A stretch of DNA of 64,000 bases from Candidatus Poribacteria bacterium (GTDB lineage: Bacteria > Poribacteria > WGA-4E > PCPOR2b), in the NCBI GenBank assembly GCA_965208325.1, contig OZ242326.1:3712001-3776000 (forward strand), written 5' to 3'. Numbering within the stretch: the first letter of the stretch is position 1; every line of letters begins with the position of its first letter. Positions 48,038 to 50,202 of the stretch are shown one piece after another. The notes beneath the pieces are model-generated. The model did not search any database. It worked only from the letters and a program-made list of their open reading frames with translations, and was not told the origin of the DNA. The position numbers and the translations under genes are program-made.

Positions 48038-48291
48038 TGAAATTAAAGAAACCGAGTTTTGAAGAAATAGTATCAAATGACCTGATGATAGTTGGAATGC
48101 GCGTGGTTACTGACTTCGAGCCATCATCAAATGAGCGAGTTATGTTGGCTTAATTAGCTTATCCGTCAAGAAATTCATTTGGTTTGGCTAGAAGCGTGAC
48201 AAAGTATACCAAAATGGCTATGGCGTGCCAAGCCGATGCCAAAGAAAGAGACGTTGTTTTCCCATGTCTAAGCAATAATAGGCGTATGCTG

Positions 48292-49185
48292 TCATTGCAA
48301 GTCTCCTGTAGGTTTGGAACTGGACGGCACGGTGTTATCTTTGCCGTCTTCCAAGTTTGCGTTGATGTCATTCAGCGAATGTTGAGGAATTAGGTCGAGA
48401 TATTGAGAGATGACGCGCTTGGAAAGTTTGGTAATCTGAGAGATTTTGTCAATGTCATCGGTAGCGGTGCGAACAATCTTAACGGACTCATAATCATGGA
48501 TGTATCGGTCAACAGCTTCTTTGGAGTGCTTGGTTTTGGCAGCAATGGTCGGAGTCAGGTGCCCTTGTAGATAAAGGGTAATAATCTCCTTCTTGTGTGT
48601 AATTGCCGCCGATAAATCGTGAATGTTGCCGCGAGTGGGCAAGATTTTTCCACTGGTGCTTTGCCACTCGTTGACATACTCACTCACTACTGGGTCGCGG
48701 ACGTTGAGCAACACAGCCAGGTCTAGTTGAGTCAACAATGCCCCTTGGTCATAGGCTTGATAACACCATCGCACCAATCGATGAATTCTGAGTTCACGAG
48801 AGCTGAAGCCGCTGTAATAGTGTTCAATGTCCTCGGGGGCCACAAAGCTTAAAACCACAGGCTTCATGCGGGTTTTAACGATTGACTTGGCTCTCTGTGG
48901 ATATTCGTCAATCGGCACAGCCATCCAAACCAGTTGACCATAGCTAAGCATTCGTTCATCAGGAAGTTGTTCTCCAGCGGCGAGTTTATCAAGTGGCAAG
49001 CGAATCAGGAAATAGTCTTCAATAGTTTTGACGATGTCATCGACAATGGCTTTGGCAGTCACTTCGCCTTTGTCATACCCATAGGAATTGATAAAGCGAT
49101 GAATCAGCAACTGCCGCAACGATTTATCATTGATACGTCTGATTTTCTTCTCGTTGATTTCGGTTCGAGTCAATGATTTACTCAT
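48292..49185 (-). CDS. DUF1670-family protein (second of pair)
   Basis: 'AYDQGALLTQLDLAVLL...LPTRG.IHD.....THK..I...YL.G....IA..TKHS..AVDRY'. Confidence 0.75.
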   Translation of the reverse strand: MSKSLTRTEINEKKIRRINDKSLRQLLIHRFINSYGYDKGEVTAKAIVDDIVKTIEDYFLIRLPLDKLAAGEQLPDERMLSYGQLVWMAVPIDEYPQRAKSIVKTRMKPVVLSFVAPEDIEHYYSGFSSRELRIHRLVRWCYQAYDQGALLTQLDLAVLLNVRDPVVSEYVNEWQSTSGKILPTRGNIHDLSAAITHKKEIITLYLQGHLTPTIAAKTKHSKEAVDRYIHDYESVKIVRTATDDIDKISQITKLSKRVISQYLDLIPQHSLNDINANLEDGKDNTVPSSSKPTGDLQ

Positions 49186-49994
49186 GAGTTTTCCCCCTTT
49201 TTTTCATCAACGGGTTCAGGATGAAGTAAAGTCGTCATTCGCTCTGTATGTTCGTATTTATCATACAGGGAGAGATACTCACGAATCAATCGGTCAGAGA
49301 GATGGGTGATGAGCCGTATCTGTTCCTTTGGAAAGTCTTGATGATGGAGGGTTGCTACCTGAGTGAAATTACGCAAGTATCTCAACACGGCGCGTTCGGT
49401 GTGGTTCGTCTTTCGCTCAATGTCGGTGAATTGATAGCCTTTAAAGTACAGTTCTAGGATTTGGGTTTTATGAGAGATGCCGGGGCCCATGTCGTGTTTG
49501 GCGCCGCGAGTCATTACAAAAAACCCTTGCTGTTTCAACTGTCGAATGTCTCGTTTGACGGTCGCCGGGCTGGTGGTTAATAGCACCGCTAAATCTTCAT
49601 AGCTGAGCAAAGCGTCTTGGTCATAGGCTTGTTTGGTTAACCGTAAGATTCGATGTCGTCTGAGTCCTGCAAGTCCATAGTTGGCTAACACCTCAAGATC
49701 GGTGTGCACATCATTGAGGGTGAGTTGGCAGGAGACCTTTTTGGCTAAGGCAATGTGTTTACCTGCGGGTTCGTCGGCGGCTACGGCTTCATAGCAGATT
49801 TGGCCTGATGTGAGTTTAATATCGGCGTGTTGGGCAAAGTAGGAAGAAATCTGATTATAGTAGGCTTCGGCAAGGATAGGCATCAGATTGAAGTCTGACG
49901 CAATCTTCTGAATAATTGCCGCTCTCGCCGTCTTTGATTCCAGACGATTGATACCGTAGTTTGAATGACTTTGTGGTTTCATAATGACCTCCAT
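49182..49994 (-). CDS. DUF1670-family protein (first of pair)
   Basis: 'AYDQDALLSYEDLAVLL...TRG..HDMGPGISHK..IL..YF.G...TNHTERAVLRY'; ATGA overlap with its partner. Confidence 0.75.
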   Translation of the reverse strand: MEVIMKPQSHSNYGINRLESKTARAAIIQKIASDFNLMPILAEAYYNQISSYFAQHADIKLTSGQICYEAVAADEPAGKHIALAKKVSCQLTLNDVHTDLEVLANYGLAGLRRHRILRLTKQAYDQDALLSYEDLAVLLTTSPATVKRDIRQLKQQGFFVMTRGAKHDMGPGISHKTQILELYFKGYQFTDIERKTNHTERAVLRYLRNFTQVATLHHQDFPKEQIRLITHLSDRLIREYLSLYDKYEHTERMTTLLHPEPVDEKKGENS

Positions 49995-50202
49995 GGATTC
50001 ATGGTAATTGATGGAAATAACATCTGTTATCAGTTTAACTCATGGGGTCATTTGATACAAACTATAAAAAACTCGGTTTAAAGCACCACGGTTTACGCCG
50101 CTGGGAGGCAAGAACATAACGTTAGCGACTATCTACATTCTACATGACCATAAAAAAACGGAGAAAACTGACCAAAAGCTGGAATAAGGAGTGCTCACAC
50201 CA

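What the first reader, a model, noticed from the sequence alone, without database searches (positions are those of the whole stretch)
48048..50078. TIR-bounded ~2-kb element carrying only two DUF1670 genes, inserted into a palindrome
Seen: two overlapping paralogous DUF1670 genes bounded by 21-bp imperfect TIRs (perfect core GTATCAAATGACC at 48070-48082 and 50046-50058). Weaker subterminal copies lie inside both ends (ATCAAATGAG ~48127; GGTAATTGAT ~50004). Just outside are the two arms of one palindrome (AAACCGAGTTTT ~48048 and AAAACTCGGTTT ~50067); an arm-like copy also occurs at ~2275. No DDE, HUH, serine- or tyrosine-recombinase gene is recognisable, and ~200 nt at the left end is non-coding. 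Inference: an IS-like unit whose mobility protein may be the DUF1670 heterodimer, which conserves R-G, D, H-K, H and R-Y residues plus HTH-like segments. It may target REP-like hairpins.
Basis: partly seen in the sequence, partly recalled or inferred. Interest (0 to 1): 0.8.

Follow-up and report, generated by a model that had tools for sequence, protein, structure and literature searches.

The report
DUF1670 jumping element in REP hairpin
This is one of four identical copies of a 2-kb jumping gene that carries only two DNA-binding proteins of unknown family and no recognisable DNA-cutting enzyme, and that slots, to the base, into the loop of a small repeated hairpin.

Summary
Window 48067-50065 is a 1999-bp element (ATAG...CTAT) with a 13-bp inverted-repeat core. 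It carries two overlapping paralogous DUF1670 genes and 225 nt of non-coding DNA. The genome, a Candidatus Poribacteria MAG, holds four 100% identical copies. All four sit in the loop of a REP hairpin (AAACCGAGTTTT-GAAGAA-AAAACTCGGTTT), which occurs 118 times in this genome and flanks its own Y1 (RAYT-type) transposase gene.

A sister species has the same site empty, with the hairpin intact.

PF07900 matches, taken as elements, occur in 46 of 176 Poribacteria genomes, often many per genome. Other lineages of the element insert into the last codon of genes for type IX-secreted proteins.

Both genes are under strong purifying selection (dN/dS 0.05-0.15). Confident models show only DNA-binding modules. 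No sequence or fold search found a known transposase or recombinase.

Most likely this is an autonomous, undescribed insertion-sequence family whose DUF1670 pair is the recombination machinery. That step is inferred, not shown.

This scan noted the same family earlier on other DNA. REP-loop targeting with empty-site proof is new here.

The parts
48049..48066 (.). Target DNA, left half: REP left arm AAACCGAGTTTT (48049-48060), loop bases GAAG, and the AA (48065-48066) that is repeated at the other junction
   Evidence: The 12-mer occurs 100+105 times in the genome and forms 118 hairpins. The sister-species empty site has arm-loop-arm intact.
48067..50065 (-). The mobile element proper, 1999 bp, ATAG...CTAT
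   Evidence: Four copies in G000 are identical over exactly this span. Empty-site comparisons. The ends are conserved across genera while the flanks differ.
48067..48082 (+). Left terminal inverted repeat ATAGTATCAAATGACC
   Evidence: Nearly invariant in 31 distinct left ends. A related core, TCAAATGACC, bounds a distant subfamily.
48083..48131 (.). Conserved subterminal imperfect hairpin (stem about TGATGATAGTTGG / CCATCATCA)
   Evidence: Pairs are kept in 85-87% of cells across 31 sequences on either strand, with some two-sided changes. The strand and the molecule (RNA, ssDNA or protein site) are not decided.
48203..48231 (-). Sigma-70-type promoter facing the left end: -35 TTGGCA, 17 nt, -10 TATACT
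   Evidence: 10 of 12 matches. At least 9 of 12 in 30 of 31 distinct left ends, at a fixed distance of 102 or 134-139 nt from the element end.
48292..49185 (-). orfB, 297 aa, DUF1670 paralogue
   Evidence: Pfam E 1.1e-59. dN/dS 0.05-0.13. 1478 homologues at E<=1e-3.
49182..49982 (-). orfA, 266 aa counted from the second ATG (the ORF opens at 49994); DUF1670 with winged HTH
   Evidence: Pfam E 7.6e-64. Most listed homologues are 266 aa. AF2 model pLDDT 90.5. dN/dS 0.05-0.15.
50046..50065 (+). Right terminal inverted repeat GGTCATTTGATACAAACTAT; it has 4 nt more than the left one between core and tip
50066..50079 (.). Target DNA, right half: the duplicated AA (50066-50067) and REP right arm AAAACTCGGTTT (50068-50079)

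Best explanation
This is an autonomous insertion sequence of an undescribed family. I split the account into what is shown and what is inferred.

Shown:
- A 1999-bp unit with terminal inverted repeats has recently multiplied in this genome.
- It inserts orientation-specifically, and to the base, between the G and the A-run of the REP loop (TTTT-GAAG^AA-AAAACTCGG).
- AA is left on both sides and the hairpin arms are pushed 2 kb apart.
- Related lineages use the last codon (AAR) of genes ending in a type IX secretion sorting domain. There the element's own AAATAG restores the lysine and the stop codon.

Inferred:
- OrfA and OrfB act together as a hetero-oligomer. They are paralogous proteins built from an N-terminal alpha/beta module, a winged HTH and two further HTH-like units.
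- They bind the 13-bp repeat core at both ends and the target, and carry out or direct strand exchange.
- The best candidates for chemistry are the residues conserved in both paralogues: the loop T-R-G-x-x-H-D...S/T-H-K, plus H194 and R-Y202.
- The invariant AA on both sides, the strict site choice and the conserved promoter that fires out of the far end fit a conservative site-specific reaction with a 2-bp core through a circular form (junction CTAT-AA-ATAG). In such a circle the outward promoter would read into orfA-orfB.

My odds: mobile IS about 0.95; the DUF1670 pair is necessary for its movement about 0.8; the pair itself supplies catalysis about 0.5; a circular intermediate about 0.4.
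For: Mobility:
- Four copies are 100% identical over 1999 bp.
- The sister species G002 has the orthologous site empty with the REP intact; its flanks are 95-96% identical.
- The reverse case also exists: a G002 copy whose site is empty in G000. It also differs by the element plus 2 A.
- PF07900 is found in 46 of 176 Poribacteria genomes and 7 of 31 genera, with up to 15 scored matches per genome.
- Many homologues sit on contigs of about 2.0 kb.

Target:
- Of 49 distinct left junctions, 14 are in a REP loop, 32 at a ...RKM[LV]I[LR]K* gene end, 2 elsewhere and 1 next to a relic left end (my count of its list).
- The right flank always begins AA and then varies (G/A/C/T).
- TIGR04183 is over its cut-off in 3 of 4 flank genes tested.

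Target choice follows the element lineage, not site supply:
- G018 has 195 REPs with suitable loops, yet its 5 copies use gene ends.
- G000 has 34 such gene ends, yet its 4 copies use REPs.

Proteins needed:
- dN/dS is 0.05-0.15 for both genes.
- In the intact copies inspected the two genes are adjacent and overlap.
- Natural 2x and 3x DUF1670 fusions exist that contain nothing else.
- R159 is invariant; G160, H171, H194 and Y202 are kept in at least 90% of 72 sequences.

No helper with the same ends: in G000 the TIR core occurs only in the 4 copies, one ~390-bp relic and one solo end.

Promoter: conserved in 30 of 31 left ends. No promoter of 9/12 or better was found in the 70-nt right end.
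Against: - No nuclease, DDE, HUH, serine or tyrosine recombinase signature was found in Pfam or NCBIfam.
- Foldseek found 0 hits at E<=1e-3.
- The best VIA Z was 6.9 for the whole protein and 4.5 for the N-domain. All whole-protein hits were HTH or wHTH modules.
- So the proteins look like DNA binders only. The conserved R/H/K/Y residues could equally serve DNA contact.
- No circle junction was found: 0 in JGI metagenome contigs. In 176 genomes there was 1 hit, a full copy abutting a relic end, not a circle.
- The A/B complex could not be modelled.
- AA as a duplication cannot be told apart from an element that carries AA at one end and demands AA in the target.
Confidence: 0.55

Rival explanations
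1. The element is mobile, but the DUF1670 pair only recognises the ends and the target. The DNA breakage and joining are done by a host enzyme (for example a Xer-type or other housekeeping recombinase, or a topoisomerase), as in elements that borrow XerCD.
For: The models show only HTH-type and small alpha/beta modules. Pfam finds only HTH families besides DUF1670, also in the fused forms. A 2-bp common core and strict site choice are typical of conservative site-specific recombination (named from general knowledge).
Against: By my reading of the automatic cluster labels, the family occurs in many bacterial phyla and in Methanobacteriota, and a control genome of Methanosarcina matches. A borrowed enzyme would therefore have to be near-universal. 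The polar residues conserved in a flexible loop in both paralogues look more like an active site than a DNA-reading surface. No candidate host partner was identified here.
Confidence: 0.3
2. The two DUF1670 genes are passengers (regulators or similar). They ride in a non-autonomous element that a transposase encoded elsewhere moves in trans, for example the REP-associated Y1 transposase or an IS with the same ends.
For: A Y1_Tnp gene flanked by the same REP family lies in this genome at G000 3321944-3322279.
Against: In G000 the TIR core occurs nowhere except in the four copies and two relics. 35 of 49 junctions have no REP arms at all, so a REP-acting enzyme cannot explain them. Both genes are under strong purifying selection in every lineage compared. 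A distant subfamily keeps both the gene pair and the same TIR core.
Confidence: 0.08
3. The copies spread by homologous recombination or gene conversion between dispersed repeats (REPs, conserved T9SS tails), not by transposition.
For: All targets are dispersed repeats. Copies C and D share longer repeated flanks, and copy C lies in a tandem array of otherwise empty units.
Against: The window copy shares only the 12-nt arms with the other sites. At gene-end sites the DNA downstream of the stop codon is unrelated between sites. Two insertions lie in unique DNA, and one of them has an empty orthologous site. The junction is identical to the base everywhere.
Confidence: 0.03

Closest known systems
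IS110/IS1111 family elements that insert into REPs (ISPpu9, ISPpu10, ISPa11; IS621 with its bridge RNA)
   Same: Specific, oriented insertion into REP sequences: abstract of PMC1525189 and abstract start of PMC12288879. A 2-nt core shared by donor and target, circular intermediates, and a non-coding end that is transcribed are also shared; these three points are from recall, not from a call.
   Different: No DEDD/RuvC-like transposase: no Pfam hit. This element has clear terminal inverted repeats and two HTH-only genes. No Rfam family matches, and no convincing RNA structure or target complementarity was found.
IS1397 / ISKpn1 (IS3 family), which insert in the loop of palindromic units
   Same: Insertion into the loop of a REP-type hairpin. 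I saw these papers only in the listing; the loop detail is recalled.
   Different: IS3 elements encode a DDE transposase through an orfA-orfB frameshift, end in TG...CA and make 3-5 bp duplications (recalled). Here orfB is a paralogue of orfA, the ends are ATAG...CTAT and 2 bp are repeated.
Tn7 insertion at attTn7 through TnsD
   Same: Base-precise, oriented, harmless insertion guided by the conserved 3' end of a protein-coding gene (recalled). Compare the T9SS-tail sites.
   Different: Tn7 needs five proteins, including TnsA/B nucleases and an AAA+ regulator, and makes 5-bp duplications (recalled). Nothing of that kind is encoded here.
IS630/Tc1-mariner and IS21
   Same: A 2-bp flanking repeat (TA in IS630) and a two-gene layout (IS21), both recalled.
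   Different: No DDE domain and no IstB-type ATPase. The repeat is AA, and the target is a long specific site.
Pfam DUF1670 (PF07900)
   Same: Both proteins are full-length members.
   Different: The family has no assigned function. No paper in the searched library holds 'DUF1670' or 'PF07900'. Source names are 'hypothetical', 'biotin operon repressor' or 'DUF1670 domain-containing protein'.

Membership tests
Insertion sequence (generic) | Several near-identical copies at unrelated places in one genome | tested here: met
   4 copies, 100% identical over 1999 bp
Insertion sequence (generic) | Terminal inverted repeats and a short flanking repeat | tested here: met
   13-bp perfect core, ATAG/CTAT tips. 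AA on both sides at all junctions seen.
Insertion sequence (generic) | Empty-site allele in a relative | tested here: met
   The G002 site is empty with an intact hairpin. The G000 site is empty for a G002 copy.
Insertion sequence (generic) | Encodes its own transposase | not testable with these tools
   Only two DUF1670 genes are present. Activity needs an assay.
Pfam PF07900 DUF1670 | Score over the gathering cut-off of 25 bits | tested here: met
   215.5 and 201.9 bits
DDE, HUH (Y1/Y2), serine or tyrosine recombinase/transposase families | Sequence match to a catalytic domain model | tested here: not met
   No such family at E<=0.01 in Pfam or E<=1 in NCBIfam for OrfA or OrfB, nor in 11 fused or long relatives at E<=1e-3. 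The only transposase row is IS1 at E 0.012, 15.5 bits against a cut-off of 100, over an HTH stretch.
DDE, HUH (Y1/Y2), serine or tyrosine recombinase/transposase families | Catalytic fold | tested here: inconclusive
   Foldseek found nothing at E<=1e-3. VIA best Z was 6.9 (TrpR) for the whole model and 4.5 for the N-domain. A missing match does not exclude a fold.
IS110/IS1111 family | DEDD transposase, no or weak terminal inverted repeats, bridge-type ncRNA | tested here: not met
   No transposase-domain hit. Clear TIRs. No Rfam hit. RNAalifold found 8 pairs at -1.3 kcal/mol with no compensatory change.
REP / REPIN elements (the target, not the element) | Short palindromic hairpin, about 100 or more copies per genome, linked to a Y1 (RAYT) gene | tested here: met
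   118 hairpins. A Y1_Tnp gene at G000 3321944-3322279 is flanked by the same hairpins at 3321583-3321690 and 3322319. The hairpins are present in 5 of 5 relatives searched, including two without the IS. I did not check systematically that the copies are intergenic.

The most novel reading that the evidence does not exclude
DUF1670 proteins are a new class of DNA recombinase or transposase built only from helix-turn-helix-type modules. Their active site would be formed by the conserved R-G...H-D...H-K / H / R-Y residues across an A/B hetero-oligomer. The enzyme would perform base-precise, oriented, conservative insertion with a 2-bp AA core through a circular form. Its target choice (REP loop versus last codon of T9SS-substrate genes) would be switchable by few changes, since elements with 94% identical OrfA use different target classes.
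Probability: 0.35. Interest if true: 0.92.

Novelty: new variant of a known kind. Interest (0 to 1): 0.8.

Why it matters
If the DUF1670 pair is the enzyme, this is a transposase or recombinase class outside all described ones. It would have tool-like properties:
- small genes;
- single-base precision;
- fixed orientation;
- insertion that does not damage the host gene.

It would also give a function to a Pfam family with over a thousand cluster representatives (1237 at E<=1e-3). These are now annotated as hypothetical proteins or 'repressors'.

Even if a host enzyme does the chemistry, two things stand. The element shows REPs and the conserved tails of secreted-protein genes acting as safe landing pads. 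And related element lineages switch between these two pads, which offers a natural data set for mapping what determines the target.

Tried and rejected
1. Target mimicry in the left-end hairpin. By eye the loop (..GATGTTTATT..) resembled the T9SS target (..GATGNTNATT..). A weight matrix from 30 target sites scored the loop 4.5-5.7 bits against shuffle maxima of about 9-10, so the resemblance is no better than chance. Rejected.

2. Bridge-RNA-like guide.
- Rfam gave only one sub-threshold snoRNA row.
- RNAalifold on 31 left ends gave -1.3 kcal/mol and no compensatory pair.
- Single-sequence folds were on the whole more stable on the strand opposite to the promoter's transcript (sum -1102 against -929 kcal/mol).
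- The main hairpin pairs equally well on both strands.
No decision on RNA versus DNA structure.

3. Circle junction. An exact RE-AA-LE pattern had 0 hits in JGI metagenome contigs. It hit 1 of 176 genomes, a full copy beside a relic end.

4. Complex prediction for OrfA+OrfB was not available, so no verdict on binding.

A single distant protein was used instead.

6. RNA evidence. Contigs of three RNA-library runs hold related elements at 90-99% likeness. Contigs cannot show strand, ends or transcription, and DNA carry-over is possible. No conclusion on expression or on the predicted start near 48196.

7. Plasmid collection: tblastn with OrfA found no match.

8. PDB sequence search with OrfA: 0 hits at E<=1.

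9. Gene conversion as the means of spread: rejected (see rivals).
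Full report
WHAT IS THERE

The window is G000:C1:3712001-3776000 of a 4.7-Mb single-contig genome. The close relatives fetched from the genome collection are all titled Candidatus Poribacteria MAGs.

Between a methyltransferase gene and a thioredoxin-reductase-like gene lie two minus-strand genes that overlap by ATGA:
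- orfA, 49994/49982..49182. Most listed homologues are 266 aa, so the second ATG is the likely start.
- orfB, 49185..48292, 297 aa.

Both are full-length DUF1670 (PF07900) proteins, with E 7.6e-64 and 1.1e-59. OrfA also carries weak HTH hits. The two are 34% identical, E 2e-27.

The 13-mer GTATCAAATGACC occurs only at 48070 (+) and 50058 (-) in 64 kb, against 0.07 matches expected. The repeat finder extends it to 40 nt at 80% by including the outer arms.

THE OUTER ARMS ARE THE TARGET, A REP HAIRPIN

- The arm AAACCGAGTTTT occurs 100 times forward and 105 times reverse in the genome.
- It forms 118 hairpins of the form arm, 4-8 nt loop, arm (up to 2 mismatches per arm). The loop is GAAGAA or its complement TTCTTC in 72 of them. 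Some hairpins stand in tandem arrays.
- A Y1_Tnp (RAYT-type) gene at G000 3321944-3322279 is flanked by these hairpins, so this is a genuine REP family.
- The exact hairpin pattern also occurs in relatives: G001 5, G003 13, G002 34, G006 26 and G018 265 copies. G001 and G003 have no DUF1670 gene. The REPs therefore exist independently of the element.

MOBILITY

BLAST of the region finds four copies in G000. Over 48067-50065 (1999 bp, ATAG...CTAT) all four are 100% identical, and all four sit in a REP loop.

The sister species G002 has flanks 95-96% identical. At the orthologous site it carries the intact hairpin...AAAG AAACCGAGTTTT GAAGAAAACACTCGGTTT AAAG..., and no element. More distant congeners (86-88% identical flanks) have neither the REP nor the element there.

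The converse also holds. One of G002's two copies lies in unique DNA (CCGAT-AAA[TAG...CTAT]AAA-CGCG), and the orthologous G000 site reads CCGATAAAACGCG.

In both pairs the filled allele equals the empty allele plus the element plus two A. At gene-end sites the base after the right-hand AA varies (G, A, C or T), while the left junction is always AA-ATAG. So at most 2 bp are repeated. Whether AA is a true duplication or a shared 2-bp crossover core cannot be told from sequence.

DISTRIBUTION

- PF07900 is found in 9 of 41 close relatives.
- It is found in 46 of 176 Poribacteria genomes and 7 of 31 genera, with up to 15 scored matches per genome.
- Within a genome the listed matches often score identically, for example in G018, G099, G060, G096 and G161.
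- A search of 1.84 billion cluster representatives gives 1237 proteins at E<=1e-3 and 103 at E<=1e-30. These include forms of about 500-570 aa with two matched stretches and about 930-950 aa with three.
- Pfam finds nothing in 11 fused or long relatives scanned except DUF1670 and HTH families, plus one EamA fusion that looks like a read-through.
- Atlas clusters labelled DUF1670 list Chloroflexota, Bacteroidota, Planctomycetota, Methanobacteriota and others as their commonest phylum. These are automatic labels and only a lead.
- In a distant subfamily from metagenome contigs (loci L099 and L101, fetched with P0126, a 46%-identical relative of OrfA, and 45-50% identical to it), the gene pair is again bounded by inverted repeats with the core TCAAATGACC. 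In L099 it lies between the arms of another palindrome, CAAGTGCGTT / AACGCACTTG.

TWO TARGET CLASSES

I collected 49 distinct left junctions from all fetched loci (my count):

| Class | Junctions |
|---|---|
| REP loop | 14 |
| End of a gene whose product ends ...[T]RKM[LV]I[LR]K* | 32 |
| Other DNA | 2 |
| Relic left end | 1 |

- Every REP junction has the same orientation: left ..TTTT-NNNG|AA, right AA|AAAACTCGG.
- In the gene-end class the right flank reads AA(A/G)TA(G/A), which is the original lysine and stop codons. The element's own AAATAG recreates lysine-stop for the gene.
- Of 4 such flank genes tested, 3 carry the T9SS type A sorting domain TIGR04183 over its cut-off, ending 2 residues before the C-terminus.

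Target class follows the element lineage, not the supply of sites:
- G018 has 195 REPs with NNRGAA loops, yet its 5 copies are at gene ends or a relic.
- G000 has 34 T9SS-like tails, yet its 4 copies are in REPs.
- An element whose OrfA is 94% identical to the one here (L051/L083) sits at a gene end.
- Several G000 T9SS genes are followed directly by decayed left ends, at G000 2139018, 2657334, 2325643 and 2333448. The host lineage therefore once carried gene-end users.

THE PROTEINS

dN/dS between element lineages is 0.05-0.15 for orfA and 0.05-0.13 for orfB, at dS 0.1-2.9. Both genes are therefore kept by selection acting on the element.

The AF2 model of OrfA is confident (72-sequence alignment, pLDDT 90.5, pTM 0.64). 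It shows:
- three helices and a beta-hairpin (residues 1-100);
- a long helix leading into a winged HTH (about 101-165);
- a lower-confidence conserved loop (about 157-172);
- a five-helix C-terminal part (173-255).

Fold searches gave the following:
- Foldseek against the PDB: nothing at E<=1e-3.
- VIA-align against 48,161 chains: best Z 6.9 (TrpR, 59 residues). Other top hits were NiaR, DeoR, Mu Mor and Mu C, Z-alpha and similar wHTH or HTH modules. None reached Z 8.
- The N-terminal 100 residues folded alone (pLDDT 87.5): best Z 4.5 (IHF, rmsd 10.4), which is not a match.
- PDB by sequence: 0 hits.

Thus no catalytic domain is recognisable. What is conserved is R159 (invariant) and, in at least 90% of 72 sequences, G60, G74, D95, R114, D130, G160, G166, H171, H194, Y202 and Y236. 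The motifs TRG..HD, (S/T)HK, H-S and R-Y are present in both OrfA and OrfB. Its catalytic meaning is untested.

THE NON-CODING LEFT END (48067-48291)

A sigma-70-type promoter lies on the minus strand (TTGGCA, 17 nt, TATACT; 48231-48203; 10 of 12 matches). It points out of the element past the left end. It scores at least 9 of 12 in 30 of 31 distinct left ends, at a fixed distance from the tip. The 70-nt right end upstream of orfA holds no promoter of 9/12 or better.

Between the promoter and the tip lies a conserved imperfect hairpin (48083-48131). It pairs in 85-87% of cells on either strand.

I could not show an RNA:
- Rfam is silent.
- RNAalifold gives almost nothing.
- An apparent likeness of the loop to the T9SS target did not beat shuffles.

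An attractive but unproven reading is that, after circularisation, this promoter would drive orfA-orfB across the CTAT-AA-ATAG junction. Junction promoters of several IS families work this way (recalled). I found no such junction except one genomic tandem with a relic end.

COMPARISON WITH WHAT IS KNOWN

REPs as IS targets are established. ISPsy8, ISPa11, ISPpu9, ISPpu10, ISRm22 and ISRm19 are named in the abstract of PMC1525189. ISPpu9, of the IS110 family, is named in the abstract start of PMC12288879. IS1397 appeared only in the listing.

Those elements encode DEDD or DDE enzymes; this one does not. No paper in the searched library (8.1 million PMC papers and 0.36 million bioRxiv texts) contains 'DUF1670' or 'PF07900'. 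A search for Poribacteria with 'insertion sequence' and 'transposase' gave 4 papers whose titles and abstract starts look unrelated. ISfinder could not be consulted.

Earlier notes of this scan had already described DUF1670 two-gene insertion elements in at least 5 other genomes, with insertion into the last codon of T9SS-substrate genes. I reproduced that behaviour independently in Poribacteria. New here are REP-loop targeting with orthologous empty sites, the 2-bp AA rule, lineage-specific target choice and the conserved outward promoter.

VERDICT

This is a real, recently active insertion sequence of an undescribed family, inserted in a REP loop. The mechanism of DNA breakage and joining is unknown. 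Most likely the DUF1670 pair is responsible.

Noticed in passing
G000:C1:3321583-3322330 (L107), outside the window: A Y1_Tnp (RAYT-type) gene (E 2.2e-9) is flanked on both sides by the same AAACCGAGTTTT-type REP hairpins. This is probably the REPtron that spreads the target family.
   Followed up: partly
G000:C1:1955640-1956450 (L106), outside the window: An insertion of about 825 bp carries a second Y1_Tnp gene (E 1.2e-11) between hairpins of another family (GCGCGGCAAGATGCCGCGC). It is flanked by a direct repeat of about 30 bp and lies right beside the empty site that corresponds to G002's second IS copy.
   Followed up: partly
G000:C1:2139013-2139405, 2718948-2719055, and the stops of genes ending at 2657334, 2325643, 2333448: Decayed relatives of the element: a ~390-bp MITE-like remnant with both ends at a T9SS-type gene stop, a solo left end (81% identical over 109 nt), and left-end-like strings directly after K-stop of other T9SS-tail genes.
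   Followed up: partly
G000:C1:2032411-2033857, 1894626-1897565, 4209645-4212497, 1111806-1112773: The REP hairpins stand in tandem arrays with periods of about 352, 193-194 and 216 bp. IS copy C occupies one unit of the 352-bp array, whose other units are empty.
   Followed up: no
G006 loci L034, L037 (also L010, L018): In this genome orfB is interrupted by a TGA, and two copies are 0.5-1.1 kb longer than the rest (core-to-core 2546 and 3128 nt against about 1990). These are degenerating or nested copies.
   Followed up: no
Runs X3 and X7 laid on window 47900-50250: An RNA-library contig of 955 nt at depth 106 carries both element ends around 628 unrelated letters, so it is a short derivative. 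One contig of a run that holds 0.91 of the sampled words joins 48067 to 50059 with one extra A, with only 21 letters on the shorter side. It could be a footprint-like allele or another REP variant.
   Followed up: no
L029/L060/L096 (G018:C1:~247725): A full copy is followed directly by AA and a relic left end (ATAGTATCAAATAACC...). This is the only RE-AA-LE junction found in 176 genomes. It shows that a left end preceded by AA can itself be a target.
   Followed up: partly
P0130, P0133, P0137, P0140 (about 930-950 aa) and about 20 proteins of 500-570 aa: Natural single-chain proteins carry three or two DUF1670 modules and nothing else recognisable. They could be useful for modelling how the modules pack.
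   Followed up: partly
   Followed up: no
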